Shown here in pieces: positions 2-15,717 of a DNA stretch of 64,000 nucleotides. Source of the DNA: an uncultured archaeon (lineage in GTDB: Archaea > Asgardarchaeota > Lokiarchaeia > Sigyniarchaeales > SOKP01); NCBI GenBank assembly GCA_964486045.1, contig CAZALK010000008.1, positions 139,611 through 203,610 on the forward strand, given 5' to 3'. A model generated the notes under the pieces. That model did no database searches, was not told the origin of the DNA, and worked only from the letters and a program-made list of their open reading frames with translations. Made by a program: the position numbers and the translations under genes. The first letter of the stretch is position 1. Each line of letters opens with the position of its first letter.

Positions 2-151
2 ATTTTTCATCATATTGATGTATCTGCATTTGTATATTGTGATGCGTTAAATTATATCGAAATTAATGGATATTCTACTTTTGATAATTTTGATGTAGCA
101 GCCTCTGACGATAAATTTAATCAACTAACGATTGAGTATCTAGATATTTAG
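2..151 (+). CDS. 3' end (partial, window edge) of a paralog of the 1365-1922 membrane-anchored beta-rich protein
   Basis: Not in ORF track. Frame 2 reads IFHHIDVSAFVYCDALNYIEINGYSTFDNFDVAASDDKFNQLTIEYLDI*, which aligns with the 1365-1922 C-terminus (YHSVDSFAFVYSNGTNYIEINGES...ADDLFNQLTIEFVAI). Confidence 0.85.
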   Translation: MFHHIDVSAFVYCDALNYIEINGYSTFDNFDVAASDDKFNQLTIEYLDI

Positions 152-292
152 TGGAAGATTTTTAATACTTAACTCTTTTTTTTTTCAATTCTTCATAAGC
201 AGGGATTTCCATCTCAGAAAGTTTAAAAATTAAATAAATAATTTAATATCTAGTAAACGAAAATTAAGAAATTGAGTAAAATAGTTAGTTGA

Positions 293-1174
293 GTGAAAAT
301 GATCGCTAAACAGAAATTTGGTAACACCGGACATATGAGTACCAGAATTATTTTTGGAGCTGCGGCGCTCAGTAATGTTACACAAGCTGAAGCAGATCAA
401 ACATTTGAAGTACTTCTTAAGTTTGGAATAAATCATATCGACACTGCTGCGGGTTATGGGGAGTCAGAGTTACGAATCGGTCCTTGGATGGAAAAACATC
501 GCAATAAATTCTTCCTTGCTACAAAAGTATTTAGGCGTTCCTATCAAGAAGCCCTTGATCAGATACATAGTTCACTTGAACGAATGCGTGTATCTTCAAT
601 CGACTTAATTCAATTTCATAATTTGACATCTCCTAATAGCTGGAAAAAAGTAATGGGTGAAGATGGAGCCTTAAAGGCCGCCGTTGAAGCCCGTGAACAA
701 GGAGTGGTAAAAAACATTGGTGTAACAGGGCACGGATATACTGTAGCTGCCATGCATAAACAAAGCTTAGAGCATTTTGAATTTGATACGGTTCTATTAC
801 CATACAACTACATGATGGTACAAAATTCGGAGTATGCTGCAGATTTTGAAAGCCTTTTGAAACTATGTAAGGAACGAAATGTGGCAGTTCAGACAATAAA
901 ATCTCTCGCACGCCGTCCTTGGGGTGGGAGCAAAAGGATCCGAACCACGTGGTACGAACCTTTTGAGGATCAGGTTGATATAGACCGTGCAGTTCATTGG
1001 GTTTTAAAAAAAGAAGGAATTTTCCTCAATACAAGCGGTGATATTCATATTTTGCCCAAAATACTTGATGCTGCCAGTCGTTTCAATATCGGACCCCCCG
1101 AAGAGGAAATGCAGGAAAAAGCTACTCAGCTAGAGATGAAACCAATATTTGATGGAAGATCCTTAATTTTATAA
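293..1174 (+). CDS. Aldo/keto reductase family oxidoreductase
   Basis: [31 protein letters not shown] and IGVTGH AKR motifs. Start is GTG 293 or ATG 299. Confidence 0.93.
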
Positions 1175-1364: not shown

Positions 1365-1922
1365 CTAAATAGCTACAAACTCAATCGTTAGTTGATTAAA
1401 CAAATCGTCAGCACGAACAAAAAAGTTATTATCTCCTAATAAAGACTCTCCGTTAATTTCTATATAATTTGTACCATTACTATATACAAACGCAAATGAA
1501 TCAACAGAATGGTATTGGGAATTCATTGCTAATGATGTCTCATAATAATCTAAAAAAAATTCGGTAATACCATCTTTTAATAATTTTATCGTATAAATAC
1601 TAGCAGGATTGATATCCATCAATACCATAGAGAGGTGGATTCGATACCAACCAGGTTTTAATAAAGTAATACGAGTATTAGTGTTTGAAACAGAGATAAA
1701 GTTAGGATTACTCAAGCTATTGTCTCCAAATTCTATAAGCCAATTATCTAGCGCATTATGAGGGGGATAACCTTGATTGTCCGCAAGCGAATCCCATACT
1801 CCCACAACGATAGTCATATTATTAGTGGTATTTTGACCGTTCCACACTACAAATGTAAATCCTATTGCTCCAGCGGCTAAGATTATCCCTATAACCCCTA
1901 AAACTGCTCCACCACGTCCCAT
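1365..1922 (-). CDS. Membrane-anchored surface protein, possible C1q/TNF-like jelly-roll domain
   Basis: N-terminal hydrophobic helix, then a beta-rich domain with ITLLKPGWYRIHL, LLKDG and NGTNYIEI spacing reminiscent of C1q/BclA-C domains. The fold call is tentative. Confidence 0.6.
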   Translation of the reverse strand: MGRGGAVLGVIGIILAAGAIGFTFVVWNGQNTTNNMTIVVGVWDSLADNQGYPPHNALDNWLIEFGDNSLSNPNFISVSNTNTRITLLKPGWYRIHLSMVLMDINPASIYTIKLLKDGITEFFLDYYETSLAMNSQYHSVDSFAFVYSNGTNYIEINGESLLGDNNFFVRADDLFNQLTIEFVAI

Positions 1923-2230
1923 TATTTATCACTCATAATTTTTTTTTAATTTCATTTTTTAAATATTAGTTAAGAATTGGATTATATTTCTAAATATTTT
2001 AAAATTATACTAATAAATTAGAACTTTTTTAGAAAAAAGTTATGAAATAAAGCTAAATTCAGCTTCTATGACGAACAAACTTTAACGATTAAACAGAGCA
2101 CATTTAATAAAGTTTAATATCATTACGAATCAAAACCTTATTTTTAACCTACATCAAAAATACTATTATCAAATTTAGGTCAAGTCATGATTGTGAAACT
2201 ATCGAGATCTTCAGCAATTTCATTCAAAGA

Positions 2231-2536
2231 TCACGAAAGATTTTGAAAAGAAATTAAATCCATCTGAATTGATCTATGGTTAATATTTGAGACTAGGTCT
2301 TCAAGATCAGGGAACTCAAAAGGGAAGATGTTTTCAAAAGCTCTTTTTAACAATTCAACGTACTTCTTCTTGTCATATTTGTGCTTTTTATCATCAAATA
2401 AGTCTGAAAGGATAACCTTTTTTTCAGGAAAACTTGGATCCGCATCGGCATTAAGAATAATATATCTTACGTTTTTACCTGCTGATGCAATAACACCAGA
2501 GCGTTCTAACTGTCTTGCGGCAACTGCCTGGTAACT
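2231..2536 (-). pseudogene. Isolated 3' fragment (101 codons plus stop) of a PolB2 gene
   Basis: Reverse translation SYQAVAARQLERSGVIASAGKNVRYIILNADADPSFPEKKVILSDLFD...QMDLISFQNLS* matches the 13294-15717 C-terminus (83 of the first 98 aa identical by hand count). No start codon, and similarity ends abruptly at 2536. Confidence 0.93.
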
Positions 2537-3101
2537 AGTTTTCCCTTCTCTAAGTTAATCTGAGTTTAGGTTTTGCGAAGAAAAACTTATGTAATAAACC
2601 CTCGAATGCTTTCCTCTAAAATAATACTGTGCCTTTTATAAGAGGGAGAAATAGAAAAGAAGTGCAAGGAAAAAAAGCTAAAAACTTGGAATTGCTTAAA
2701 GATAATTAAAATAAAATCACGAGATTATCTTGACTTTTTTCTTCAATATTCTGAGTAAAATAAGAGAGAAAAAAAAAATGCTCGGGAGTTTGTTCAGCTG
2801 CGGGTGGGATAACTATAATCATAACACCATTCGATAAATATTTTAATATGCGTTTATCAATTGCATGGATCTTAATAAACTCAAGAAATTATCTTTGGCC
2901 AAAATAACCATCATTAAACAAAATGAGCTATTCAATGCAAATAGTAAAAGGTACAGAGCTTTTAGGGGAAAACTGTGACAATATTCTCAAATGTATTAAA
3001 AAAATAGAAGAACCGTATTATAAGACAGAAACTCTATCAAGTTAAATTATTCCCTAATAGTTAAAAGATGATTTCAACACCCTCTATAATATCTAGATTT
3101 A

Positions 3102-5159
3102 CTATTTTATTGAAGCCATGAATTTCAAAATAGTATCCATAATAGGAAGAGAGTTACAAATTATTCCAATTCTTTTAGCCCGAAAATCAAAGGCTTTCCT
3201 TCCAATAGGTGCGAGGTATGGATAATTGGAGATAATTATTACTTCATCTCCAGCCAGTATTGCATTAAATTTAACATTTTTACTCAATTCAAGGAAATTA
3301 CAATTTTCACATTCTTTTGTTATCATTTCTAATTTTCTTATCCCCTCTTCCCATTGAATTGAGCTTTTTATAAGTTCCGTCTTATTTAATAATATAGAGA
3401 AAGAAGGGATCTCTTCTAGGTGTGATTGAAATATTGGACCAATTCTTTTCTGACTTAGCTTTTCAGTAATTAATTGGAATGGCGCTTGTATCTCTCTCAT
3501 AGCATCTATTAGTATATCTTCATGTTCATAATCATATAATAATGATATACATTCTATATTCACCAAAGTGTTAATTTTTTCTTTGATTTCATATAGTAAA
3601 CCATTTGTACTCTCTATATTCTCGTTTAATATAAAAAATTCAAGGTCCTCAATTTTTTTTTCAAAAAAATTGATAATATTAATTCTGTAATCGGACAAAT
3701 TATTACAATAGACTTGAGTGGATTTTGCTAAGTATTTGTTTAAAACTTTTTTTCTATCAAATGAATCAGGTAAAAAATCGATAACAAATTGCAAAAGGCT
3801 TAAAGGTGTCTTTCCGCCCTCTAAATAAATGTTTGGAGTAATTAAACCCTCCTCGTTGTAATTATAACCAAGGAATGATAAACAATTGTAAAAGACTTTG
3901 TTGTTATCAATGATTAAAAAATTTGCATCAATCATATTATCCGATATAGTAAAAAATACTCTATTTTTATCTTTTCTTTCTAGTCCAGAAGATACTCCCA
4001 GTCTAAACTCCTTGATCTTTTCACGCTGTTCGCTAGGTGAGATCTCTTCTACACCCCCCCAAATAAACGTAATAGGTACTTCATTTTGACTAGATTCATA
4101 TATAATACTCTGAAGAAATGATAAATTGTTTAAGTTTAAATTATCAGAACAGATAACAATAAAATCTTGTGCATTTTTAACGTGTTCAATAATAAGATTT
4201 TTTACTTCTAAATTTTGATATTTAAATACTATTTTATTTACACTTTCAATTCGTTCTTTTAAAATTTTAAAATCTTTTTTTATTCTATCAAACCTATCCT
4301 CTAACAATATTTGAAGGCTCAAATTCTCTTCAAGATTATTAAAAGAGTTAATTTCTTCCTGTAAAAAGTTAAGGTTGAATAGAATTTGGGTTATAAATTT
4401 TTTATTTGACAAAATAATCGGTGTTTCAAGAGTTAAATCTTCTTCTATTTCTTCTGATTCCATAAGTTTTGATTCAAAAGCTTTCTGCCAATATTTTTGG
4501 ACGACTCTGGGGAATATATCAAAATCCAGATTAAATAAAATACCTTCTTCCTTTTTAATTGGAATATATAATTTATCTCGATGTAAGGGATATAAGAAAT
4601 TAATTTTTTCGACATTTTCTAAATCTCTAACTCTTGATTTAACACATTGAGTATATTTTAGTAAAGAATAACTATATATATGTTGAAATGTCTCTGAAGG
4701 TGAAGATTTTAAATCAATGAAATTCGTTTTATCAGGATTAGGTGTCTTTAAATAATCATTAACATCATTTTGAATAAAGAGTTCCCCCCCAATTTTTTCT
4801 TGAAGAATTATTACGGGATATTTATAGACAGTAGTATCAACATCCAAAAATTCATCTAGTTTATCTTTTTCAACATATTCAATAATCTTTTCGCTAAGTG
4901 TTACTAATCCACTATTTAAATCAATATGGATTAATCCTGAATATATTAATGGTGTTAATATATAATTCATAATATGTTTTCCAACATTAAAGGCTTTAAC
5001 TATGTTTATTAGTGAATTATCTTTACTTATTAATTTTAAAACTAATTTCTCAAGATGAGAAAGCATCTTACTTTTACGAATCACAATTTCACATTTTTCC
5101 ATTTGAATTGGAACAGTAATAACATCATCTTTTTTAACCTCCAGATTTTCCTCAGACAT
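3102..5159 (-). CDS. wHTH plus tandem degenerate PLD-like domain protein (MkoB-like)
   Basis: N-terminal winged-helix-like segment. PLD-fold pattern (AQDFIVICS...ITFIWG...IDANFLIIDNN and KFNAILAGDEVIIISNYPYL) with HxKxxxxD degenerate. Lies 1 nt downstream of the kinase-helicase gene. Confidence 0.65.
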   Translation of the reverse strand: MSEENLEVKKDDVITVPIQMEKCEIVIRKSKMLSHLEKLVLKLISKDNSLINIVKAFNVGKHIMNYILTPLIYSGLIHIDLNSGLVTLSEKIIEYVEKDKLDEFLDVDTTVYKYPVIILQEKIGGELFIQNDVNDYLKTPNPDKTNFIDLKSSPSETFQHIYSYSLLKYTQCVKSRVRDLENVEKINFLYPLHRDKLYIPIKKEEGILFNLDFDIFPRVVQKYWQKAFESKLMESEEIEEDLTLETPIILSNKKFITQILFNLNFLQEEINSFNNLEENLSLQILLEDRFDRIKKDFKILKERIESVNKIVFKYQNLEVKNLIIEHVKNAQDFIVICSDNLNLNNLSFLQSIIYESSQNEVPITFIWGGVEEISPSEQREKIKEFRLGVSSGLERKDKNRVFFTISDNMIDANFLIIDNNKVFYNCLSFLGYNYNEEGLITPNIYLEGGKTPLSLLQFVIDFLPDSFDRKKVLNKYLAKSTQVYCNNLSDYRINIINFFEKKIEDLEFFILNENIESTNGLLYEIKEKINTLVNIECISLLYDYEHEDILIDAMREIQAPFQLITEKLSQKRIGPIFQSHLEEIPSFSILLNKTELIKSSIQWEEGIRKLEMITKECENCNFLELSKNVKFNAILAGDEVIIISNYPYLAPIGRKAFDFRAKRIGIICNSLPIMDTILKFMASIK

Positions 5160-5160
5160 T

Positions 5161-8100
5161 TTAATATGGAACCTCGTCGTGTGAGATTATTTTTCCTTCT
5201 TTTTGAAAAAAGACTGCCACCTTACTAAATTTTTCCATAATTGGATTTCTACGATGATTTAAACACATTTTTAAATCACCTACAATTATTTCTACTTTTC
5301 TCGCTCTTGAGAGCATTACATTTAGTCTTTGAGGATCAGGAATAAAACCCCAAGCTGATCTGATTCCTTCTTTATTGTTACTTCGAACAAGTGATATAAT
5401 CACTAAATCTGCCTCTTGACCCTGAAAACTATCAACAGTATAACAAGAATTTTTAATATTTATCCCCCCCAAGTTTGGAAGGTTGTTTGGTAAGTGAGTC
5501 TTTAAAACATTTACTTGCTCATTATAAGGGCTTAAAATAGCCAAGGAGAATTGGATATACTTCTTATTAACTCTAATTTTTTTTAATATTCTATTAATTA
5601 ATTTAACTTCAGAAATGTTGTAAAAATCTGTACCAGCCCGTTTTTCTCCATAGATTCTTTCATTTTTTGTATTGATCCAAATTAATTGTTCATTTGACAT
5701 CATAGTTGGTTCTAAAATTAAATCATCTATTTCATGAATTTCTTGTCTAAAAGCTCTGTCATAGAAAATTGTTGAAATCATTTTACTAATTTTTGAAGGA
5801 AGTCTATGTTGGCCTATGAGTGTATTACAAGATCTCCTTTCATCAGCAGAATCATATGAAGGGCTTATTTTTTTAAATCGTTCGAACATAGATTGGAAGA
5901 TTTTTACTTCTCTAATTGTTAACTTTCTAAATTCTAAGAAATCTCTTTCATTAAAGGTTATTTCTTCTTTAGATTCCTCTTCTATTTCATCTAATTCTTC
6001 ATTGATTAGTTCAATAATATCATTTAGTTTAAATGGAGGGAGTTGGTTTTGATCTCCAATTAGGACCCACTTATTCCCTAGCTGCAAAGGTCGGAATAAT
6101 TCAGAAGGATATGTTTTAGCAGCCTCCTCGATTATTACTAAATCAAAATTAGGTCTTGATTCCAGTTTACTCAAATCATTAGACGTACTAGTACAGAAAA
6201 CTAAGTTTGAACTCTCTCTAATACTATCTGTCCATTCACGACTTGGTGCTTTACCTTCGTATTTTATTATGTTTTCAATTTCGGCTAAAATGTCATCATA
6301 TTTTTTAAGATTAGGATTCCATTTTTCAATATTCTCTAACATTTTAATAGCCATTTGTTTAGGAAAATGCTTAAAGGCTATTGATCCTGGCGGATAATTA
6401 CGTTCTCTAAATGGATTAATTAGTCGAACAATTTTAGGTTTTGGATTAATGTTTAATTCCTTGCACATGTCATAAGTCTTCTCTAGAAGGTCATCTAAAG
6501 CCGCATGCTCTTTACTTGAGACTAGAATCCTTTTATAAGGGTCTCTTTCAAGAGTTAATCTAATTAATTCCTTTGCAGACCATGTTTTTCCCGTTCCTGG
6601 AGGTCCTTGAAGAAGGAATATTGGAAAAGTGTAGAAAATAAAATTTACGATATCACTCTTATTGTCTTTCAAAAAATATTGATGTATCGCAGCTGGATTT
6701 AAAATCGCATCAATTAAATAATCTTTATCTTCTAAATTTTGAATAGTCATAAATTTCCTTTTTAATAGATGCAATGTTGGTTTTAAATCCCAAAAACGCA
6801 AATAACCATTTAAAGAAGGACTATCATTTTTTCTAACTTCTTCCCATTTTACAACAATATTGAAATCATCAGGTTCATCAATAATTTCAATAAATTTCCA
6901 TTTTCTTCGTTCTTTAAACCTTTGTTTTAAATCTGGTGAATCTGTTAGTTCTACAGTTTGAGTTTGAGAATTTCTTAAGACTTGTATGAACCGGGTCCTT
7001 TCAGCTTTGTTAAAAATGTTTATACTAATTTGTCGTTTACTTTTTTTTGGACTCTCTTTATCGAATGAATCGTTTATAAGTTCATATTCGAATATGTATC
7101 TTTTTTCAATATTTTGCTCTACTTTAGTAATAAGTTTTAATGCTTCTAACCATCTTTTCTTATCTAGTTCATAATCTGATGGTTCTTCATCAATAGTTCT
7201 TATTTGTGTTAAAGCATTTGCAAATATCCGATCCCAAGTAGAATATGATTTTTCTTTAAGATCTTGCCAATATAACTCATTTACTTTACAGACACAAATA
7301 TCATTTTTCAATCCAAAACTTCTCTCTTCATTTTTATTTAATAAACTTACTATTGCAATTTTTCTATTATTACGACCCCTCTGAAATTTATACTTTCCAT
7401 TTTTACCAATTGCCCATAAGGGCCAATCTCTATTATTCGTTAAATAAAAAGATAATTCTGAAAATTCATTTTTTAAAAAAGCATCTGGATATTCTCGAAT
7501 ACCTTGAATATTTACATCAACCTTCCGAGCAATCCAGTTGAGAAAATGACTATCTCGGTCTATATTGAAGTATATTGGTAATTTAGGTGTTGTAATTGTG
7601 AGATATTTAAGTTCGTTCACAAAATCTCTAATCTTTTCTACAAATTCATCAATGCTTTCAAATCTGTCTTCGTGATTCAATTCGGTTGCTTTTAAAATTA
7701 TTTCTTTTTCTTGTTGTAATCCCTCTTGAAAATGTATATTATCACGGATTTCATTGTATAATCTAGCTCTATCTGAAAACTCAGTGTCTTCATATTCAAT
7801 CATATCTAAATCAAAAATTAGAAAAGCCATTACTAATCCTAAAGAAAAAATGTCTGATTTAAAAGTCTCCATCTCTAAGCACTCAGGTGCTCTAAAAAAA
7901 TGCAAGTTATTTTGAATAATATTTTTTGTAATCTCATCAGAGATTAGATTAGATATTGAATATAAATAAATACTCCAGTTAAAATCACCTAATCTAAAGA
8001 TATGATCTTCACCTTCTCGATAAGCTTCCCTGTTAAAATAAACCGTATCAAGAGAGATGTTTCTATGTAGGAGTCCTGCGTTATGAATCGCAAGTAATCC

Positions 8101-8550
8101 CTCTGATAATTTTAAAATTCCTTCCCAAATTTTTTTTTTTGAAAGATTTGAATTCTTTAATTGATCAAATAGTTCGATATCTTCATTCTCCTTTTTAGAT
8201 AAGAGAATCTCCCTTAAACTTGAACCTCCTGCCTCAGTTATTAAAATAAAACAATTCTCCTCCTTATCGTACTCACCATCAATTAATTTTAGTAATGTAT
8301 TTCCTCTAGAAATATTAATTGCTCTTTGATTTAAAGAAATTTCATAATGCCATAGATATTGAGCTAACTCTTGAATACGAGGGTCCTCTTTAACGTTAAT
8401 TTTTTTTAATATAACTCTCTGTTGTAGACCACGATCTTCGGCGATATATTGATTTATTTCAATCTTATCACTAAAAGGGATCGCAATATTGCCTGTAATT
8501 TCTTCAATAATTCTATATCTTGTTTTCCATGAATCATAAATTGAGGTCAT
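5161..8550 (-). CDS. Ser/Thr kinase-like domain fused to SF1 (Upf1/Dna2/NAM7-like) helicase (MkoA-like)
   Basis: Kinase motifs: VILKK, LLHRNIS, LGDFNWS, RAPE, KSDIFSLG. Helicase motifs: LQGPPGTGKT, IIEEAAK, LIGDQNQLPP, ILSPYNEQV, TVDSFQGQEAD, RLNVMLSRAR. Confidence 0.9.
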   Translation of the reverse strand: MTSIYDSWKTRYRIIEEITGNIAIPFSDKIEINQYIAEDRGLQQRVILKKINVKEDPRIQELAQYLWHYEISLNQRAINISRGNTLLKLIDGEYDKEENCFILITEAGGSSLREILLSKKENEDIELFDQLKNSNLSKKKIWEGILKLSEGLLAIHNAGLLHRNISLDTVYFNREAYREGEDHIFRLGDFNWSIYLYSISNLISDEITKNIIQNNLHFFRAPECLEMETFKSDIFSLGLVMAFLIFDLDMIEYEDTEFSDRARLYNEIRDNIHFQEGLQQEKEIILKATELNHEDRFESIDEFVEKIRDFVNELKYLTITTPKLPIYFNIDRDSHFLNWIARKVDVNIQGIREYPDAFLKNEFSELSFYLTNNRDWPLWAIGKNGKYKFQRGRNNRKIAIVSLLNKNEERSFGLKNDICVCKVNELYWQDLKEKSYSTWDRIFANALTQIRTIDEEPSDYELDKKRWLEALKLITKVEQNIEKRYIFEYELINDSFDKESPKKSKRQISINIFNKAERTRFIQVLRNSQTQTVELTDSPDLKQRFKERRKWKFIEIIDEPDDFNIVVKWEEVRKNDSPSLNGYLRFWDLKPTLHLLKRKFMTIQNLEDKDYLIDAILNPAAIHQYFLKDNKSDIVNFIFYTFPIFLLQGPPGTGKTWSAKELIRLTLERDPYKRILVSSKEHAALDDLLEKTYDMCKELNINPKPKIVRLINPFRERNYPPGSIAFKHFPKQMAIKMLENIEKWNPNLKKYDDILAEIENIIKYEGKAPSREWTDSIRESSNLVFCTSTSNDLSKLESRPNFDLVIIEEAAKTYPSELFRPLQLGNKWVLIGDQNQLPPFKLNDIIELINEELDEIEEESKEEITFNERDFLEFRKLTIREVKIFQSMFERFKKISPSYDSADERRSCNTLIGQHRLPSKISKMISTIFYDRAFRQEIHEIDDLILEPTMMSNEQLIWINTKNERIYGEKRAGTDFYNISEVKLINRILKKIRVNKKYIQFSLAILSPYNEQVNVLKTHLPNNLPNLGGINIKNSCYTVDSFQGQEADLVIISLVRSNNKEGIRSAWGFIPDPQRLNVMLSRARKVEIIVGDLKMCLNHRRNPIMEKFSKVAVFFQKEGKIISHDEVPY

Positions 8551-8635
8551 AATTATCCTTTTTTTGTCTCTAATAAGTATTAATATTTGTTTTGTATTTC
8601 AGCTGTATTTTATTCGTTTTTCGACTTTAAAAACC

Positions 8636-8797
8636 TTAGCTTAATTTTTGGTATTTGGTGTTGGTAATATATGAAATGTTGGGTTTTAGATCTCTAAGCA
8701 CAAAACCATAGCCATTCAAGCCTACGGCGCCTTCCTTAAAGTTATCCTTTCCTCCCGCCGCGTCTGTTGCGAGTTTAATAATTTGCTCGATTCTCAT
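8636..8797 (-). CDS. Possible 53-aa small protein or gene remnant upstream of the kinase-helicase
   Basis: Not in ORF track: MRIEQIIKLATDAAGGKDNFKEGAVGLNGYGFVLRDLKPNISYITNTKYQKLS*. It accounts for a locally GC-rich patch in an AT-rich intergenic region. Confidence 0.35.
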   Translation of the reverse strand: MRIEQIIKLATDAAGGKDNFKEGAVGLNGYGFVLRDLKPNISYITNTKYQKLS

Positions 8798-8841
8798 CTC
8801 TTAAAGATAAACAAAGTAACCCATCAATTTAAATTTATGGA

Positions 8842-11721
8842 TTGACATTGATTAACGATTTATTAAAATTCTTCTATACTGAACCAAGCGATTTAGACTA
8901 TTCTCCTGGTAATGAGATGACGACAGCATTTATTTATGACGAAATTCGAGAAATTGGAGATAACATTTTTACATCTAATATAGATCCTAAATTTTATAAA
9001 GAGACCGCTGAAATATTCTTAAAAGACATTGATACTCTATTACAAGATACTCCGGATGGGAAAAGATTAGTATGGGAAGAATCATTAGTGGCACATCTAC
9101 CCGCTTTGGACGAGAATGGTGATCAAATTATTTTAAGACCTTCAATGCTACCTTCTAAAGATACCGGCTTCTTTATCTGGGATGAAGGAAAAAAGAAATC
9201 CTCTGACGAATTAACAGATCAATGGGGAAACGAAGGCGGATGGGGTTATTTTCAGGGAAAAGGCTCCCCATTTATTTTTGTTCACGATGACGATGGCAAT
9301 AATGGAATTATGCCCGTAAGTTTAATGGGTGATACCATGCCTGAAGGAATAAATCTAGGATATAAGAGTTCAGGTACAGGAGATGTGATAAAAGGAGTGT
9401 ATCTAAGCGACGAAGGAGGAGGACTTTTACTATCACAAATTGGGCTCATATCTGAAACGTTCTATGCTAAGGGTAAGGAATGGTTCAAAGATCCATTAGC
9501 CATCCCAAATCACATTAACCCGAATTATGAAATAGAAATAAATGGTAAGGTTGTCATGGTTCCTAGACTAATTTATTACAGATCTTCTACGAGACAGACT
9601 GGTAACCATATCCATGGATTCCTTCAGAAGGTAGTATCCACTATGGTACCTCGGAACACGTACAAACCGCTCATAAAGGCTGAAGTTTCTCTAACAAGTA
9701 GACTGAAAAGCATCTTAAAAAGTAGCGAGTTTTCTTATCGGTTTGAATTCGATAGGGATTTCTCATCTAAGCAATTATTCGAAATACTTAGTTTACTTCC
9801 TACTGTTGCTCAGAAAGGCTCTTCAGGTGCGATTGATTCAACTGCTTTAAATTTACTTAAATATTTTAATGGTCGATTTATAGGTAAAAAAACATTGACG
9901 AATTTTATTCCAGGTCCAGACAAAATTGAAATTAATGACATGATTAGGGCGTTAGAATTCACTGCCTTAGAATTAAAGCGATTAGCATGGAAAAATAGTG
10001 ATAATACTTTCATCGGGGCAAATCAATATCTTAAAGAATGGTTAATGTTAATCTATAATAAGATTATGACATACGATAAAACTCAACCCAATGCTGACAC
10101 TAGCATAATACGAGAGCAAGAAAAACTAACAGACCTCAGAGATAACCATGCCACAACTTATTCTGAACTAGTTACCTCAATTGAGCCAGAAAAATGTACT
10201 CCAAAGGAGTGGAATATGGCCATTAGTATTTTTGAGTCAGCATCAAAGTTATTTGGTCATGGGACAGTCAGATTAATGCTTTCAAATATGGTGAATTTCA
10301 ATAAAGATAAGAGCATAAAAATATATAATACTCCTCCAAAAGGTGAACTCGCAGCAATTCATAATCATATAGGTTTTGCTTCTATGGGCAATTTGCCAAT
10401 TTCTGATTATACAACCATCGGTAACTTTTACGAACATATGGTTGGAATATTTCTTCTAGATTCTCATGTTATCATACCGAGGACTGATATTATAATTAAT
10501 TCAAAAGAAAACTCATACATATTTCCTTTCGGACCAATAACATTTAATAATCCGACCGAAATTGTCGAAGCCAATACCATAGGTTCATTTTCTTGGTCTT
10601 TAGCTAAAAAGATTTCTGGCGAATTCAAAATATATATGAATAGCAAAACGAAGATAGATAGTTTTATATCCTCACAAACAAATCTATATAACGCCTTTTC
10701 TGATTTATTAGATGAACAAATAATAGATCAGAGACTCTATAACAACTTCAACACCCCTGAAAAGACTTGGAAGGAAAGGAAAGGAATGAATATCTGGCTT
10801 TCTAGAAGAACCAAACAAGTCGCAAGGACAGAGCTCTTTTCTATTCAATCCGGTGGCTTAAGAAACAATATTGATGAATTTAGGGCATTATTTGATTATT
10901 TAACTGACATACCATTTAATGTCCTTAAGGCGGGAGCTACTACTACATTCTCTCTATCACTAACTCAGCCATTTTTAGAAAATATAGACTATTTGAGTTG
11001 GCCAAAGGACGCCATTGCCAAACTTATCGAGGATTCTTATCAACGTTTCAAAGATGAAAATATTGAAAACTTTTTTGACCAAACTAGAAAGATAATTTCA
11101 GAATTTGGAACCGACGGTAAGAAAGTGCTAATTCAACCTATATTTTCTACAAACGATCCAGATCTAGGATATCAACACCTAATATCTGCTGAAAATCTCG
11201 CTAAAAAGAGGTGGTTACCAAGAGAAAAAACGGTATTTGAAGTTGACCTTACCAAACCCGAGGAAGCACATTATGTTTTAGAACATATAGCTCATCTTAT
11301 GGCTACATTTAATATCGCTTTTGTATTTAGAGAGTGGATTGACCTAGATACTGACCCCCGTTATAAAGATATTTATTTGAGGACAGAAAAAATGAAGAAA
11401 TATTTTGAAGATAATCAAGAAGTAATTACAGCGGTTGATTTTGAGGGTTATTTACGCATTGACGAAATCTATTCAGGGTCTTCTTCTGGTGAACAAGTCT
11501 TACTTAATGGCTATACCACAAATTCAGAGGGAAAAACATTTTTTGATGCTGAAGTTTTTAAGACATACGATGAATGGGACAAAGTATGGAAACATAAAAT
11601 GGGTTTCTTTTCGATTTCATTTGGTAAATTTAATTTTAACGCATTAATGTCTGGCACTTCTGATCAAGCGAATACCCTAAGAGAGATATTAGATCCAACA
11701 GGAACAAGATTTAGAAATTAG
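8842..11721 (+). CDS. Large hypothetical protein (959 aa), no recognised domain
   Basis: Long uninterrupted ORF with TTG start (uncertain, possibly 5' truncated). Stop overlaps the stop of the convergent LRR gene. Confidence 0.8.
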   Translation: MTLINDLLKFFYTEPSDLDYSPGNEMTTAFIYDEIREIGDNIFTSNIDPKFYKETAEIFLKDIDTLLQDTPDGKRLVWEESLVAHLPALDENGDQIILRPSMLPSKDTGFFIWDEGKKKSSDELTDQWGNEGGWGYFQGKGSPFIFVHDDDGNNGIMPVSLMGDTMPEGINLGYKSSGTGDVIKGVYLSDEGGGLLLSQIGLISETFYAKGKEWFKDPLAIPNHINPNYEIEINGKVVMVPRLIYYRSSTRQTGNHIHGFLQKVVSTMVPRNTYKPLIKAEVSLTSRLKSILKSSEFSYRFEFDRDFSSKQLFEILSLLPTVAQKGSSGAIDSTALNLLKYFNGRFIGKKTLTNFIPGPDKIEINDMIRALEFTALELKRLAWKNSDNTFIGANQYLKEWLMLIYNKIMTYDKTQPNADTSIIREQEKLTDLRDNHATTYSELVTSIEPEKCTPKEWNMAISIFESASKLFGHGTVRLMLSNMVNFNKDKSIKIYNTPPKGELAAIHNHIGFASMGNLPISDYTTIGNFYEHMVGIFLLDSHVIIPRTDIIINSKENSYIFPFGPITFNNPTEIVEANTIGSFSWSLAKKISGEFKIYMNSKTKIDSFISSQTNLYNAFSDLLDEQIIDQRLYNNFNTPEKTWKERKGMNIWLSRRTKQVARTELFSIQSGGLRNNIDEFRALFDYLTDIPFNVLKAGATTTFSLSLTQPFLENIDYLSWPKDAIAKLIEDSYQRFKDENIENFFDQTRKIISEFGTDGKKVLIQPIFSTNDPDLGYQHLISAENLAKKRWLPREKTVFEVDLTKPEEAHYVLEHIAHLMATFNIAFVFREWIDLDTDPRYKDIYLRTEKMKKYFEDNQEVITAVDFEGYLRIDEIYSGSSSGEQVLLNGYTTNSEGKTFFDAEVFKTYDEWDKVWKHKMGFFSISFGKFNFNALMSGTSDQANTLREILDPTGTRFRN

Positions 11722-12989
11722 TGGATTTTTATCCCTTTTTTTTTTAATTTTTGAATAATGAGATTACCACTTTCTGTAAGGTTGTTTTCATCAATAAATA
11801 AAGTTTTTAGATATTTTAGATTTAGCAAGTTTTTTGGTAAATCTCTAATTTTATTTCCCTTTAAATTAAGAAGTTCGAGATTTTCAAGTTTACCTATAGA
11901 TTCAGTTATTTTTTTTATCCGATTCTTTTGTAGGTGCAATGTCTTTAAATTTCTTAACAAAAAGACGTTAACGGGTATTTGAGTTAAAAGATTATTACCT
12001 AAATACAGATATTCAAGTCTTTTCAATTCGATAATTGAATCTGGAATTTCTTCAACCATATTACCCAGAGAAAATAATTTAAGCCTATTTAGAGCACCTA
12101 TTCTTTTTGGGACAAATTTTAGACAAGCACTTCGGATTCTTAACTTTTCAATCTTGTATAGGTCAAATATTGAGTTTGGAAATTCCTCCAAAATACTACT
12201 TTCCACTGATAATTCTTGTAAATTCTTTAATTTTACAAATGTTTTCGGTATTGATGGTATTTTATCTCCAAAATAACGTAAAACTTGTAAATTTTTAAAG
12301 TTAGAGACTGAACTCGGGAGGGGTTTTGCGGGTTTATTATACCAATATAACAGTAGTTTAATTACGGACTTATCTTTTACCATAAACTGTTGACTCTCAT
12401 CCAAGCCGTCACCAGTGTCAAATTCCTCCCAATTTACCTTTTGGTTTATAGGCTCATCTGTAAACTTTTCAAGCTCAAGCAACGATTCAGCTTCCACAGG
12501 ATTTAAAATAGACATAAAATATTGATCACGGTCTAAAAAATCGACATAATGTTCGCTGACTAAAAATTTAATAACTGAATCATTCCCTGAAGCGAGACGT
12601 GTTGCGATTTCTCCTTTAAAGACTTGTTTTGCGATTGCATCACCGGCTTTAGTGAGAGCGTGAAGTAGTGGAAATGCCAAATTTCGATGGAGCAGTCGTG
12701 TGTCATAATTGTTCTCATACCATACTTGTAAATTTGAACAGTGTGCCCAAAACTCAGTTCTAGGATCTATATAGACATCTTCTCGCTCACCAGGGTGTTC
12801 TAGGGTATTATCAAGTTTTTCAGTGATTTCATCAAGAGACTTAAGTTCTTCAAGCGATTTAACTTTGTTAATTGGGATGTTTAAAAGTAAGAATTTGCAT
12901 TGAATGAATCTCTTACCAGCAACATAAATAATTGTTCGAACACCCTCGACTTTTAGCGTTAAATATCTATTAATTCTAAATTCGCTCAT
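11718..12989 (-). CDS. Leucine-rich repeat protein with Lokiarchaeia-type conserved N-terminal domain
   Basis: C-terminal LxxLxxLxLxxNxLxxIP repeats and N-terminal EFWAHCSNLQVWYENNYDTRLLHRNLAFPLL motif. ATG 12989 is preceded by GAGGAG (ORF track extends to 13040). Confidence 0.88.
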   Translation of the reverse strand: MSEFRINRYLTLKVEGVRTIIYVAGKRFIQCKFLLLNIPINKVKSLEELKSLDEITEKLDNTLEHPGEREDVYIDPRTEFWAHCSNLQVWYENNYDTRLLHRNLAFPLLHALTKAGDAIAKQVFKGEIATRLASGNDSVIKFLVSEHYVDFLDRDQYFMSILNPVEAESLLELEKFTDEPINQKVNWEEFDTGDGLDESQQFMVKDKSVIKLLLYWYNKPAKPLPSSVSNFKNLQVLRYFGDKIPSIPKTFVKLKNLQELSVESSILEEFPNSIFDLYKIEKLRIRSACLKFVPKRIGALNRLKLFSLGNMVEEIPDSIIELKRLEYLYLGNNLLTQIPVNVFLLRNLKTLHLQKNRIKKITESIGKLENLELLNLKGNKIRDLPKNLLNLKYLKTLFIDENNLTESGNLIIQKLKKKGIKIH

Positions 12990-13293
12990 GATCTCCTCAA
13001 TATAAAGAAAAGTTGTCTTTATATAATTAATCGAAATCAAGACATAAAAAAATTATGTGTAAGTATATTTTTTGATTTTATAAATACCAAAAGAGCCAAT
13101 ATTAAATTTTTCTTTCTTATTGAAAATGTTATAAAAAAGCCATTAAAAGAGTTCAGACTAAAGGAAAAATACAAATTAACCAAAACTTGACTAATCATTA
13201 AAATTATAGGAGAGATAATCTCAGAAATTTTTTTTATTTTTTTTAAATTTAACTTAAAATTCACTACCCAATGCACTTAATCTTTACATAACT

Positions 13294-15717
13294 TTAAGTT
13301 TTTTTACGGGCGGTTTGAAATGACAGCAAATCCATTTGAGTTGATTTTTGGTTGAAGTTTGCTACTACTTCTTCAAGATCGGGAAAGCTAAATGGAAAAA
13401 TGCTCTCAAAAGCCCTTTTTAATAGTTCTGTGTACTTCTTTTTATCATACTGGTGCTTCTTTGGATCATACAAATCCGAAAGGATCACTTTTTTTTCGGG
13501 AAAACTGGGGTCTGCTTCAGCGTTAAGGATAATATACCTTACATTCTTTCCCGCAGAAGCAATTACACCCGAGCGTTCTAGCTGTCTAGCCGCTACTGCT
13601 TGGTAAGAGTTCACCTTGTATTGTGAAGGTCGTCTTGAAATCTTTTGTTTTATCGTAAGCTCATCCCCCGATACATTACCACTTGTGATTTTGTTAATAT
13701 ATTCATAGAGCTTCTTTTTTGCTTCGGGAATTTTTTTCATAAACTCTTCGACGGAAACGACTCCTTGGAATACATCAAAAAAAGCATATTGGGCATCTTT
13801 GACGATCTTTGGTATATCTCTACGTCTCACCTCAACGCCTCTGACCTTTAGTTCTCCATTAGTTTTGATACCCCAATAATGAGTGAGGGCTGGAACGTTA
13901 CGTTCGGCTCGAGAGGGCAGAAAAGCAATGACATTATAGCATCCATCCCAGCTCATCGGGACTCTAGTATGATCCGTTATTTCTTCAGCTATCTTCTTAG
14001 TTACTTTTTCAAACTCCTCGGGAGTTCTTCCTTTCGTGTCTTTCACATAGATTGAATCAACAATTCCGTGAATAATCTTGCACCCGTGACTTCCAGCGAT
14101 TTCAGCCGCACGCATTAAAAATTCTCGGGCAAATGCACACACTGTTTGGTGTGCCTCAATTTTACCAAAACGCGCATTTTTGAAGCCTAAATAACCAAAA
14201 CTTACTACAAGCACCCATTTTAAAGCGATATCTGTGAACTTGTATCGAAGATCATCGTGTGTTTTGTTATATGCTTTGCACTCTAAACGTTTTCTAAGGG
14301 GTAGACTAATCGATTTTGAGATAATTCCTTCTCTTTTGGAACAGATATGAAAACCTCCTCCTCCGGGTACTCTAATTCCCGTTCCATCATCTTTGCAACA
14401 TTTGCAGTTAATTGTTTCAGATGAAACGTTAAGATTGGCCATAATGGAAGGATACATTGATGAAAAATCGAGTTCTACAACTTGATCAAAGACTCCGATT
14501 ATTGGCTCGAATATATGGCCTCCCCGGTCATTAACGATCAGATCCATGCCATTTCTAAATCCTTCAGGACTTTTCTTGAAAGGTGGAATAAGATGACCTA
14601 GCTTGTAGGCATTATAATATTGTATCGACTGAAGCGCACCTCCAATTGTTATTCTACATAGTCTCTGCATCGCTACTCGAGAAATCCTCGCAACTTCAAT
14701 AATTCCTGGTATATTTCCTTCACTAAAGTGCAAACTCCCATAAGAAGATGTATCCATATGAAAACGACCAGTCAAATACACTTGCGTTTTAGAGCGACGC
14801 ATTATTATCCCATATGACATATAATGATCTGAGTTTCCTGAAAGGTTAAAAATACAGTTTTTTAGCGGTGTTTTATTCCGAGAAAGGTAGAGATCCTTTG
14901 ATACTCGATTCACTGATGCCCGAGCAACTAAGTATGGAAATACGAATTCGTCTCCTCCACTAGTTAATATAATATCAGGATCTAATTTCTCGATTACTTT
15001 ACTAATCATTTTAATGGTTTCTGCTTCATCAGCTTCATCGATAAGAATCGTTCTTTTTCTCTGACCGTCTGCCCTTGGCACATTATTTTCATCATTTTCA
15101 ACAATGCTCACCTCTGCGTATACCAAACAGTCGTTAAAATATGATCTCATCCCATGTTGTTCAACTTTTATATCCAGCCATACAGATTTTAACGGAGGTA
15201 ATTCATAAAATAGTTCTTCGTTGTCATCTTTTAAATCTAAGGATACCAGCTGCATTGAGTGACCATCAGCATTTTTCTTCTTTTTAGGTTTGACCTTGAA
15301 ACTGCAAAAAGACATAGGAAAGAGATCATTTACGTAGAAATACATCTGAGCGATTGGAAGATCGGTGTTATATAACGTAAACAGCCCAATCCCATCAATA
15401 GCTTTAATAGTTTTCTTAAATACTGAAGGCTTCACCACAGAGACTCCAAAGATTTTTGTCTTCTTATGGTCTTCTAGCTTCACATATTTTTCGCAGATTC
15501 GTACACCTTTAACGTCGTGATGGGATAAAAGAATAGTCTCTAGCCTCCTAAAATCGTTACCCATGTGTTTCTTTGGCACAGCAAAAAATTCGGGGCAGAA
15601 ATCATGAAATATTTTTACAATCTTTTGCTCTTTTGCAGTTTTCACCCAAAGAATGACTCCATTGCCATGAGTGGAGACATCAAAAAGCCAACCGTCAAAT
15701 TGTTCTTGAAAGCTCAA
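13294..15717 (-). CDS. polB2: Family B DNA polymerase, PolB2 subgroup
   Basis: Motif A ELDFSSMYPSIM, motif B KWVLVVSFGYLG, motif C HGIVDS (PolB2-type in place of YGDTDS), KVRGVEVRRRD, degenerate exonuclease motifs and C-terminal PIP-like QMDLLSF. TTG start overlaps the upstream TGA. Confidence 0.9.
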   Translation of the reverse strand: MSFQEQFDGWLFDVSTHGNGVILWVKTAKEQKIVKIFHDFCPEFFAVPKKHMGNDFRRLETILLSHHDVKGVRICEKYVKLEDHKKTKIFGVSVVKPSVFKKTIKAIDGIGLFTLYNTDLPIAQMYFYVNDLFPMSFCSFKVKPKKKKNADGHSMQLVSLDLKDDNEELFYELPPLKSVWLDIKVEQHGMRSYFNDCLVYAEVSIVENDENNVPRADGQRKRTILIDEADEAETIKMISKVIEKLDPDIILTSGGDEFVFPYLVARASVNRVSKDLYLSRNKTPLKNCIFNLSGNSDHYMSYGIIMRRSKTQVYLTGRFHMDTSSYGSLHFSEGNIPGIIEVARISRVAMQRLCRITIGGALQSIQYYNAYKLGHLIPPFKKSPEGFRNGMDLIVNDRGGHIFEPIIGVFDQVVELDFSSMYPSIMANLNVSSETINCKCCKDDGTGIRVPGGGGFHICSKREGIISKSISLPLRKRLECKAYNKTHDDLRYKFTDIALKWVLVVSFGYLGFKNARFGKIEAHQTVCAFAREFLMRAAEIAGSHGCKIIHGIVDSIYVKDTKGRTPEEFEKVTKKIAEEITDHTRVPMSWDGCYNVIAFLPSRAERNVPALTHYWGIKTNGELKVRGVEVRRRDIPKIVKDAQYAFFDVFQGVVSVEEFMKKIPEAKKKLYEYINKITSGNVSGDELTIKQKISRRPSQYKVNSYQAVAARQLERSGVIASAGKNVRYIILNAEADPSFPEKKVILSDLYDPKKHQYDKKKYTELLKRAFESIFPFSFPDLEEVVANFNQKSTQMDLLSFQTARKKT

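What the first reader, a model, noticed from the sequence alone, without database searches (positions are those of the whole stretch)
2231..13608. ~11 kb defence-like island bracketed by two diverged copies of the polB2 3' end
Seen: 2231-2536 is a stop-free, start-less, same-strand copy of the last ~100 codons of polB2 (13294-13608). It is ~85% identical in protein, with many DNA differences at third codon positions, and breaks sharply at the SYQAV codon. Inference: the two copies diverged under purifying selection in different lineages, so this is not a recent local duplication. The layout resembles an element that integrates into a coding gene and supplies a replacement 3' end, or a homology-facilitated insertion. 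The mutagenic polymerase gene may be a landing site for defence cargo, and the intact polB2 may be a chimera with a swapped PIP-bearing tail. No integrase is present, so mobility would be in trans, lost, or recombination-driven.
Basis: partly seen in the sequence, partly recalled or inferred. Interest (0 to 1): 0.88.

Follow-up and report, generated by a model that had tools for sequence, protein, structure and literature searches.

The report
Gene island displacing a polymerase gene's end
An 11-kb block of accessory genes, including a Mokosh antiviral system, was recombined into the end of a DNA polymerase gene of a Lokiarchaeon; it brought its own replacement gene end and stranded the original end downstream, a tidy way of gaining genes without breaking the target that seems to recur at other genes in the same genome.

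Summary
Window 2234-2536 is a start-less, stop-free copy of the last 101 codons of the family-B polymerase gene at 13294-15717 (77% nt, about 84% aa, dS saturated). An independent 11.7-kb contig and a second sample span both junctions.

A close relative (L078; flanks mostly 96-100% identical, apart from short diverged patches) has the predicted empty site: polB2, then the 185-aa gene, then the aldo-keto reductase. G000 carries 11,072 extra bases.

The displaced fragment is the native-type end. The intact gene is a chimera: identity to the relative falls from about 97% to about 70% at 14164-14206, which is 560 nt upstream of the duplication boundary. In trees this part groups with a Loki's Castle contig, not with the relative.

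The cargo is composite: a Mokosh type I module that occurs at 91-95% identity in other contexts, a 959-aa orphan, an LRR gene, and a relic of a JAB/MPN gene. I found no integrase and no att core.

Best reading (0.55): one-sided homologous recombination with an illegitimate far joint, as in C-terminal displacement at rhs/T6SS loci. Rival (0.2): a decayed integrase-borne element.

At least eight other genes in this genome carry similar displaced 3' ends, and one of those islands holds a tyrosine integrase. I rate it a new variant of a known kind, of moderate interest.

The parts
293..1174 (+). Aldo-keto reductase gene; native right-hand flank
   Evidence: Pfam PF00248. Collinear with L078 at 92-100%.
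1365..1922 (-). 185-aa membrane-anchored protein of unknown family; native flank, which follows polB2 directly in the empty site
   Evidence: Orthologue is the 183-aa gene at L078 12725-13276, between polB2 and the reductase. No family hit.
2231..2536 (-). Displaced native-type 3' end of polB2: 101 codons plus stop, no start codon
   Evidence: 90% aa identity to the closest relative's end. Both halves are closest to G013 among genus genomes (0.86-0.88 nt). Collinear with L078 from about 2400 downwards at 92-100%.
2537..3041 (.). Non-coding spacer of foreign origin; the joint at 2536/2537 is the non-homologous (illegitimate) junction
   Evidence: No homology to polB2 or L078. Not shared with the other Mokosh contigs, whose similarity ends at 3042-3109.
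2778..2873 (-). Relic: 32-codon internal fragment of a single-copy JAB/MPN (HSHPSGN motif) gene
   Evidence: About 89 nt at 75-93% identity, one copy per genome, in 70 of 134 family genomes. tblastn gives 78-81% over aa 106-137 of a 166-aa protein. The genome's own full copy lies at C1, about 425.8 kb.
3042..8650 (-). Mokosh type I module: MkoB 3102-5159 and MkoA (kinase-like N-terminus plus SF1 helicase) 5161-8550
   Evidence: PADLOC MkoA E 1.5e-166 and MkoB E 5.5e-21. Pfam AAA_11, AAA_12 and Pkinase. The same module occurs at 91-95% nt in four metagenome contigs with unrelated flanks.
8842..11721 (+). 959-aa orphan (g959), convergent with the LRR gene
   Evidence: No Pfam, NCBIfam, PADLOC or Atlas hit. 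Patchy relatives in 15 of 161 class genomes, some as parts of giant open frames.
11718..13040 (-). 440-aa leucine-rich-repeat protein
   Evidence: Pfam LRR_14, LRR_4 and LRR_8.
13037..13276 (-). 79-aa ORF of doubtful reality, directly after the polB2 stop
   Evidence: No family hit. Low-complexity hydrophobic translation.
13294..14164 (-). Imported 3' part of polB2 (about aa 518-807), itself a fine mosaic
   Evidence: Identity to L078 is 60-85%, against about 97% upstream. aa 526-702 groups with P0155, not P0002. 13905-13700 is 90-98% identical to L102. The tail EEVVANFNQKSTQMDLLSF resembles P0155.
14164..14206 (-). Interval holding the left (homologous) crossover
   Evidence: The last isolated mismatch to L078 is at 14206; dense mismatches run from 14164.
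14207..15717 (-). Native 5' part of polB2
   Evidence: 94-99% aa identity to P0002. dS 0.20 and dN 0.017 against L078. Sister to P0002 at 100/98.

Best explanation
A linear piece of DNA from a diverged relative (same genus or nearby; the donor is not sampled) was recombined into the polB2 gene of a recent ancestor of this organism. The piece carried the last 870 nt or so of the donor's polB2, followed by the donor's downstream genes. On the left, a homologous crossover inside polB2 (window 14164-14206) used the conserved polymerase core as an anchor. On the right, the non-homologous end was joined illegitimately to the recipient's own polB2 at the SYQAV codon (2536/2537). The result is about 11.6 kb of foreign DNA replacing about 560 nt of native sequence, a net gain of 11,072 bp. 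The polymerase gene stays intact but is chimeric and has a foreign PIP-like tail. The native last 101 codons are stranded downstream as an untranslated relic. This is the same outcome as homology-facilitated illegitimate recombination, or C-terminal displacement, in bacteria. Shown: the empty site, the chimerism, the native-type nature of the fragment, the composite cargo and the lack of an integrase. Inferred: that the incoming DNA was linear, that a single event did it, and the direction of the change (gain in G000 rather than loss in the relative).
For: Empty site: in L078 polB2, the 183-aa gene and the reductase are contiguous. L078 5536-12404 matches window 20218-13314, and L078 12112-14463 matches window 2534-177, with a background identity of 96-100%. 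A foreign tract within the gene runs on into the cargo: identity to L078 falls from about 97% to about 70% at 14164-14206 and stays low to the stop, apart from one 90-nt patch. Trees place G000 with P0002 over aa 366-520 (100/98) but with P0155 over aa 526-702 (94/100). P0002's segment is typical of its clade (88-91% to others), whereas G000's is at most 86% to anything sampled. The foreign tract begins about 560 nt upstream of the duplicated part; a one-sided homologous anchor predicts this, and integration at an att site or a single crossover within the repeat does not. The fragment is native-type: 90% aa to P0002, closest to G013 in both halves, and collinear with L078 downstream. Contigs of two other studies (X3, X4) join the reductase's end to a fragment-like polB2 end at 92% identity. 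No recombinase: no integrase or transposase domain in any island ORF, and no integrase remnant by tblastn. The longest identical run between the copies is 11 nt. The cargo is a patchwork with a gene relic at a module joint (JAB/MPN fragment), and its Mokosh module is found elsewhere with other flanks. G000 and L078 differ by many short diverged patches, so recombination with diverged DNA is frequent in this population. The mechanism and its orphan 3' ends are described for bacteria (PMC5361080, PMC3240628).
Against: Inside the foreign tract, 13560-13472 is 92-94% identical to L078. Conversely, the first 135 nt of the fragment are only 77% identical to L078. This needs one more event. The simplest is a short recombination patch in the L078 lineage, which one search supports but does not prove. 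The donor is unknown, so microhomology at the illegitimate joint cannot be checked. In the same genome an island with the same layout does hold a tyrosine integrase, and its flanking repeats also lack a long identical core. Absence of a core is therefore weak evidence. The 600-nt tract upstream of the repeat could be an independent recombination patch: patches cover roughly a fifth of the compared flank. Homology-facilitated illegitimate recombination has not, to my knowledge, been demonstrated in archaea.
Confidence: 0.55

Rival explanations
1. The island is a decayed site-specific integrative element. A circular element with a tyrosine integrase and an attP embedded in a SYQAV-to-stop copy of the polB2 end integrated at the matching site. 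The integrase was later lost, perhaps when the Mokosh module was inserted, or it acted in trans.
For: The layout (intact target with an element-borne end, and a displaced 5'-truncated native end) is what such elements produce. On contig C23 of the same genome, an 8.2-kb island lies between a VWA gene's end and a 62-codon copy of it (82% nt, dS saturated). That island holds a 413-aa tyrosine integrase (PF00589), and next to the target gene it has an LRR gene (38% to the window's LRR) convergent with a weak relative of g959, the same order as here. A strand-exchange core needs only a few identical bases.
Against: There is no integrase gene or remnant in the island or window. The foreign sequence starts 560 nt upstream of the supposed att region. 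No excision or circle joints appear in the source sample's contigs, although contigs cannot show rare forms. The C23-type integrase occurs in only four other genomes of the family, with no such flanking repeats within 20 kb. No other genome of 54 in the genus has a confirmed second polB2 end.
Confidence: 0.2
2. The island, with a displaced fragment already in place, was formed earlier in another lineage. It was then moved into this genome as a cassette by ordinary double-crossover homologous recombination. The left arm lay in the polB2 body (about 14.17 kb) and the right arm inside the fragment (about 2400).
For: Identity to L078 switches at about 2400 within the fragment: L078 agrees with the intact copy at 18 of 26 informative sites before that point and with the fragment at 39 of 49 after it. 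Both arms then lie in polB2 sequence, which makes transfer between relatives easy. Homologous transfer of complex arrays is proposed for T6SS and rhs loci (PMC5361080).
Against: The first 135 nt of the fragment are closest to G013, as is the next segment. The fragment therefore looks like one contiguous clade-typical sequence, and L078 looks like the one with the odd patch. No second genome with such an island was found.
Confidence: 0.1
3. Reversed polarity: the common ancestor of G000 and L078 already had the island, and L078 lost it by recombination between the two diverged repeats.
For: L078's end looks like the intact copy in its first part and like the fragment in its second part, as a crossover between the repeats would give.
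Against: L078's segment aa 526-702 is clade-typical and unlike G000's, so a further replacement would be needed. The parts that L078 shares with either G000 copy are only 88-92% identical, against 96-100% in the flanks. Most of the genus has no island here.
Confidence: 0.08
4. Assembly or binning chimera that joins two strains' polB2 ends.
For: Many assemblies break inside the 3' third of polB2.
Against: One Logan contig spans 1903-13560 with no differences at flat depth. A second sample has an identical contig across 2536/2537.
Confidence: 0.02

Closest known systems
C-terminal displacement at rhs, CdiA and T6SS effector loci (Jackson et al. 2009, cited in PMC5361080; Kirchberger et al. 2017, PMC5361080)
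   Same: A conserved 5' part of a gene acts as the homologous anchor. Incoming DNA brings an alternative 3' end plus downstream genes. The old 3' end is shifted downstream as an orphan fragment. No integrase is involved, and the loci are mosaic.
   Different: The target here is a DNA polymerase gene, not a polymorphic toxin. The new end is an orthologous replacement, not a new toxic domain. The cargo is a defence system and unrelated genes rather than an immunity gene. There is one displaced end, not an array. The host is an Asgard archaeon.
Homology-facilitated illegitimate recombination (described for naturally transformable bacteria and for E. coli conjugation; PMC3240628)
   Same: One homologous end and one illegitimate end. 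Foreign DNA without a homologue is added next to the anchor.
   Different: It is known from laboratory transformation of bacteria with short DNA. Here about 11.6 kb is inferred from comparative data in an archaeon, and microhomology at the joint could not be examined.
Prophages and elements that integrate inside a protein-coding gene and carry a replacement 3' end, such as e14 and phage 21 in E. coli icd (recalled from memory, not checked here)
   Same: The target gene stays intact with an element-borne end that differs mainly at synonymous sites, and the native end remains as a truncated copy at the far side.
   Different: Those use a site-specific integrase and a fixed att site. Here there is no integrase, and the foreign tract overruns the repeat.
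Mokosh type I defence system (PADLOC MkoA/MkoB models; reported in Asgard archaea, PMC11291487)
   Same: A MkoA-like kinase-plus-helicase protein and a MkoB-like partner in one operon, with a patchy distribution (8 of 161 class genomes).
   Different: MkoB shows no canonical HxKxxxxD motif and no Pfam PLD domain. No kinase HRD or DFG motif was found by simple pattern search. Activity is untested.

Membership tests
Site-specific integrative element (tyrosine-integrase type) | Integrase gene within or beside the element | tested here: not met
   No recombinase domain in any island ORF. tblastn of the genome's five tyrosine recombinases against the window gives only chance hits with E above 2.
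Site-specific integrative element (tyrosine-integrase type) | Identical core sequence at both ends (attL and attR) | tested here: inconclusive
   The longest identical run is 11 nt. The integrase-bearing C23 island has only 17 nt, so a short core cannot be excluded.
Site-specific integrative element (tyrosine-integrase type) | Foreign DNA confined between the att sites | tested here: not met
   The foreign tract runs from 14164, about 560 nt upstream of the repeat boundary at 13608.
Site-specific integrative element (tyrosine-integrase type) | Excised circle or empty site within the same population | tested here: inconclusive
   No such joint appears among X1 contigs, but contigs drop rare variants. 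Raw reads were not available.
Homology-facilitated illegitimate recombination / C-terminal displacement | Empty site in a close relative, with the insert next to a conserved anchor gene | tested here: met
   L078 has polB2, the 183-aa gene and the reductase in a row.
Homology-facilitated illegitimate recombination / C-terminal displacement | Donor-type sequence starts inside the anchor gene and continues into the new DNA | tested here: met
   The switch lies at 14164-14206, and the two gene parts give incongruent trees. A 90-nt patch of L078-like sequence interrupts the tract.
Homology-facilitated illegitimate recombination / C-terminal displacement | Recipient sequence resumes at a joint without homology, leaving an orphan 3' end | tested here: met
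   Sharp break at 2536/2537. The fragment is native-type.
Homology-facilitated illegitimate recombination / C-terminal displacement | Microhomology at the illegitimate joint | not testable with these tools
   The donor sequence is unknown. No relative of the spacer 2537-3041 was found apart from the JAB relic.
Mokosh type I | MkoA and MkoB homologues adjacent in one operon | tested here: met
   PADLOC PDLC03920 E 1.5e-166 (22-1092 of 1112) and PDLC03922 E 5.5e-21 (8-511 of 610).
Mokosh type I | PLD (HKD) nuclease motifs in MkoB | tested here: not met
   No HxKxxxxD motif; a single HVKNAQD at residue 326. No Pfam PLD hit.
Archaeal PolB2-type family-B polymerase | Family-B polymerase and exonuclease domains, distinct from the replicative PolB of the same genome | tested here: met
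   Pfam PF00136 and PF03104. The second PolB (978 aa) is only 25% identical.
Archaeal PolB2-type family-B polymerase | Assignment to the PolB2 subgroup by a curated model | tested here: inconclusive
   The best NCBIfam hit is NF004416 (314 bits), below its cut-off of 516. The motif C region reads HGIVDS.

The most novel reading that the evidence does not exclude
Displacement of gene 3' ends by recombination with diverged DNA is a general and mostly integrase-free route of gene gain in this Lokiarchaeon, and perhaps in Asgard archaea at large. At least eight further genes in the same genome, including the second family-B polymerase, are followed by an insert of 1 to 8.5 kb and then a stop-terminated copy of their own last 60-125 codons that differs from the gene mainly at synonymous sites. 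The retained old end would then serve as a homology arm, allowing precise loss of the insert or its transfer as a cassette to relatives.
Probability: 0.3. Interest if true: 0.72.

Novelty: new variant of a known kind. Interest (0 to 1): 0.55.

Why it matters
It gives a concrete, well-bounded example of how an Asgard archaeon gains a defence system and other accessory genes without any visible mobile-element machinery and without breaking the gene it lands in. The empty site, the donor-type tract and both joints are all mapped. It shows that a polymerase gene, including its PCNA-binding tail, can be a population-level mosaic. If the other displaced-end loci in this genome arose the same way, they point to a recombination habit that could explain much of the accessory-gene flux in these organisms, which have few recognisable mobile elements. 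The process itself (one-sided homologous recombination with orphaned 3' ends) is known from bacteria, so this extends a known principle to a new domain and a new kind of target. It is not a new principle.

Tried and rejected
1. Extra polB2 ends in G019 (contig C86) and G063 (C90) looked like further cases. Both are followed by the canonical downstream genes and sit at contig ends, so they are probably second strains or broken contigs.

2. Short ORFs matching the fragment (P0124-P0152): all those looked up start at contig ends.

3. The apparently split polB2 of G022 is a 100-N scaffold gap.

4. My first inference, that everything downstream of polB2 is variable in the genus, was wrong. Most genomes share one conserved gene order, and the reductase and the 185-aa gene are themselves small variable inserts.

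5. A single-crossover (Campbell) model with the crossover at about 13472/2400 explains the A/B mosaic neatly. It is disfavoured because the whole fragment is closest to G013 and because short mosaic tracts are everywhere, including in L102.

6. Donor search: relatives of g959 (47% or less) and MkoA (59% or less) in 161 class genomes are not next to polB2. The metagenome scan found the Mokosh module only in other contexts.

7. g959 gave no Atlas, Pfam, NCBIfam or PADLOC hit.

8. No tRNA in the window. The conserved 89-nt element in the spacer is not an Rfam RNA; it is a protein-gene relic.

9. No excision or empty-site joint in the source sample's contigs. Contigs cannot show rare forms, so this says nothing either way.

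10. Other genomes with the C23-type integrase showed no flanking gene-end repeats within 20 kb.

11. The dN/dS of the fragment against L078 (0.11 for the orthologous half) is too imprecise to date the event or to show decay.
Full report
OBSERVATION. It encodes 807 aa with Pfam DNA_pol_B and DNA_pol_B_exo1. Also on the minus strand, 2234-2536 plus a stop at 2231-2233 is a copy of its last 101 codons. The copy begins exactly at SYQAV and has no start codon and no internal stop. DNA identity is 77% over 293 nt and protein identity is 83-85%. dN is 0.10-0.12 and dS is saturated, the same level as between species of the genus. Both copies keep a PIP-like motif (QMDLLSF and QMDLISF), whereas most of the genus has QKDLSCFI. 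The assembly is sound. A Logan contig of 11,658 bp from the probable source run covers 1903-13560 with no differences at flat depth of about 270. A second sample of the same study has an identical contig across 2536/2537.

CARGO. Between the copies lie:
- MkoB (3102-5159) and MkoA (5161-8550). PADLOC gives E 5.5e-21 and 1.5e-166, and MkoA has a kinase-like N-terminus and an SF1 helicase.
- A 959-aa orphan on the other strand, 8842-11721, with no hit in any library.
- A 440-aa LRR protein and a doubtful 79-aa ORF.

MkoB has no canonical HKD motif. Mokosh is already reported in Asgard archaea (PMC11291487).

The Mokosh module (8650-3042) recurs at 91-95% nt identity in four metagenome contigs. 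In each the flanks differ and no polB2 piece is present. The 505-nt spacer between the module and the fragment holds a 32-codon internal piece of a JAB/MPN gene. That gene is single-copy in most genomes of the family, and its intact copy in this genome lies on another contig. The island is therefore a patchwork. It has no integrase, transposase or tRNA.

EMPTY SITE. A search of 5.8 billion proteins found P0002, which is 90% identical to polB2. Its 89.5-kb contig (L078) carries polB2, a 183-aa orthologue of the 1365-1922 gene, and the aldo-keto reductase in direct succession. L078 aligns with window 20218-13314 and with 2534-177. Background identity is 96-100%, interrupted by several short diverged patches. 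dS in the conserved part of polB2 is 0.20. G000 thus has 11,072 extra bases.

In the genus at large (45 genomes with the gene), the upstream neighbours are conserved. Most genomes also share one downstream gene order, with no insert or a small one after polB2. None has this cargo. I first read the downstream region as generally variable; one search corrected that.

WHICH COPY IS NATIVE. P0002 is 90.6% identical to G000 over the first 703 residues. Its last 101 residues are 90% identical to the fragment but only 80% to the intact gene's end. At DNA level the fragment's two halves are both closest to G013, the nearest sampled species (0.86-0.88). From about 2400 downwards the fragment is collinear with L078 at 92-100%. 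Contigs of two other studies join the reductase's end to a fragment-like polB2 end at 92% identity. The fragment is therefore the resident end, and the gene's present end is imported.

EXTENT OF THE IMPORTED TRACT. Mismatches to L078 are sparse down to 14206 and dense from 14164 to the stop. Identity falls from about 97% to 60-85%. Over aa 366-520 G000 is sister to P0002 (100/98). Over aa 526-702 it groups with P0155, a partial gene from a Loki's Castle metagenome contig (L102), and is separated from P0002 (94/100). P0002's segment is typical of its clade (88-91% to others), whereas G000's is at most 86% identical to anything sampled. P0155 also shares the unusual tail EEVVAN.NQKS.Q..LLSF. The foreign tract thus starts about 560 nt upstream of the duplicated part and runs on into the cargo. 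In L102, polB2 is followed by a type IIG restriction-modification gene.

FINE MOSAIC, AND WHAT IT LIMITS. Inside the imported tract, 13560-13472 is 92-94% identical to L078. Conversely, the fragment's first 135 nt are only 77% identical to L078. L078 agrees with the intact copy at 18 of 26 informative sites in the first part and with the fragment at 39 of 49 in the second. L102 shows yet another mosaic: 90-98% identical to G000 only in 13905-13700. Short tracts are evidently exchanged often among alleles of this gene. This may also be why many assemblies break in its 3' third. The patches therefore cannot be used to place a single crossover with confidence. Because the whole fragment is G013-like, the simplest reading is that L078 acquired a short patch resembling the allele that G000 imported.

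MECHANISM. The best-supported account is one-sided homologous recombination. Linear DNA from a diverged relative paired with the conserved core of polB2 and crossed over at 14164-14206. Its far, non-homologous end was joined illegitimately to the recipient's polB2 at the SYQAV codon. This explains four things in one event: the chimeric but intact gene, the foreign tract that overruns the repeat, the sharp joint at 2536/2537, and the stranded native end. It needs no recombinase. It is the outcome described for homology-facilitated illegitimate recombination (PMC3240628) and proposed for orphaned 3' ends at rhs and T6SS loci (PMC5361080). I give it 0.55.

The main rival (0.2) is a site-specific element that has lost its integrase. 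It gained weight from a genome-wide scan (see the next section), but it requires the upstream tract to be a separate event. By my rough estimate from the patch density, that has a chance of about one in five. Transfer of a pre-formed island by double crossover (0.1) and loss in L078 (0.08) each need more steps. An assembly artefact is excluded for practical purposes.

RECURRENCE IN THE SAME GENOME. I scanned all ORFs of 200 aa or more for same-strand downstream copies of their last 120 residues lying outside long ORFs. Besides polB2, at least eight loci turned up. The genes are an AMP-binding enzyme, a VWA protein, a transglutaminase-like protein, a 368-aa protein, an HGD-D protein, a DUF362 protein, a metallo-beta-lactamase-fold protein, and the second family-B polymerase. 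The inserts are 1 to 8.5 kb. The copies are 62-124 codons long, and most reach the stop codon and are free of internal stops. dS ranges from 0.09 to saturated, with low dN.

Their cargo is varied: PIN toxins, PAS histidine kinases, a homing-endonuclease-like ORF and unknowns. Only the VWA locus holds a tyrosine integrase. It also has, next to the target gene, an LRR gene convergent with a weak relative of g959, the same order as in the polB2 island. Its repeats differ mainly at third positions and share no more than 17 identical bases. I did not test these loci against close relatives, so whether they arose by the same route remains open.

COMPARISON AND VERDICT. The thing works like C-terminal displacement by homology-facilitated illegitimate recombination. 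Three defining features were tested and met, and one (microhomology) could not be tested. It is not shown to be a member of the integrase-type integrative elements: two defining features were tested and not met, and two were inconclusive. The process is known in bacteria. The novelty lies in the host (an Asgard archaeon), the target (a polymerase gene whose tail is swapped), the cargo, and the hint that it is a habit of this genome. I rate it a new variant of a known kind, with interest 0.55.

Earlier first-reader notes on overlapping windows describe the same stretch. One adds that polB2 sits in a RadA-like / small-protein / PolB2 cassette. The neighbours listed for L078 are consistent with that, but I did not test it.

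Noticed in passing
window 105-183 and 1333-1411: A 79-nt inverted repeat (86% complementary) brackets the aldo-keto reductase gene. This gene sits at different places relative to polB2 in different genus members, so it may itself be a small mobile or recombining cassette.
   Followed up: partly
window 2778-2873 (-): A 32-codon internal relic of a single-copy JAB/MPN (HSHPSGN) gene lies in the spacer between the Mokosh module and the polB2 fragment. It is closer to other species' genes (about 85% nt) than to this genome's own copy on C1.
   Followed up: yes
G000 contigs C13:129682-133159, C23:49483-60114, C15:53354-55872, C4:66087-68696, C7:56460-59351, C15:87409-91387, C6:144744-154261 (loci L114-L120): Seven further genes are followed by an insert of 1-8.5 kb and then a diverged copy of their own last 62-124 codons, which in most cases runs to the stop codon. 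The layout is the same as at polB2, and the cargo is varied (PIN toxins, PAS kinases, unknowns).
   Followed up: partly
G000 C23:49483-60114 (L114 483-11122): The island in the VWA gene's end holds a 413-aa tyrosine integrase about 1 kb from the displaced copy. At the other end it has an LRR gene convergent with a 327-aa weak relative of g959, mirroring the order in the polB2 island. It may be an intact relative of what the polB2 island once was.
   Followed up: partly
G000 C8:54219-63544 (L113): The genome's second family-B polymerase (978 aa) also has a downstream copy of its last 120 or so codons (61% aa, one stop). A 6.1-kb insert separates them and includes a LAGLIDADG/intein-like ORF (495 aa) and four unknown ORFs. 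Both family-B polymerases of one genome therefore carry displaced ends.
   Followed up: partly
window 1188 joined to 16036 (run X1, depth 12 against 270): A low-depth contig in the source sample joins the reductase's end to the start region of the 109-aa gene upstream of polB2, with 26 other letters between. This may be a co-occurring strain that lacks polB2 altogether. Nine of 54 genus genomes gave no polB2 match, some of them 96-99% complete.
   Followed up: no
polB2 3' third in many assemblies (G001, G021, G022, G060, G063, G064; L098-L101): Contigs and scaffolds often end inside the last third of polB2, and G022 has a 100-N gap exactly where G000's foreign tract begins. This is consistent with several co-existing alleles of this segment in natural populations.
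   Followed up: partly
L102 2770-5736: In the Loki's Castle contig whose polB2 is nearest to G000's imported part, polB2 is followed by a 988-aa N6_Mtase/Eco57I (type IIG restriction-modification) gene. This is a second lineage with a defence gene beside polB2.
   Followed up: no
window 3102-5159 and 5161-8550: MkoB lacks a canonical HKD motif, and simple pattern searches find no kinase HRD or DFG motif in MkoA. The helicase Walker A (GPPGTGKT) is intact. The module is nevertheless conserved at 91-95% nt across four other contigs.
   Followed up: partly
window 8842-11721; G131:C23, G045:C47, G000:C9: Parts of the 959-aa orphan recur inside giant open frames (13,906, 14,557 and 3,425 aa) in related genomes. 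It may therefore derive from a domain of giant surface-type proteins.
   Followed up: no
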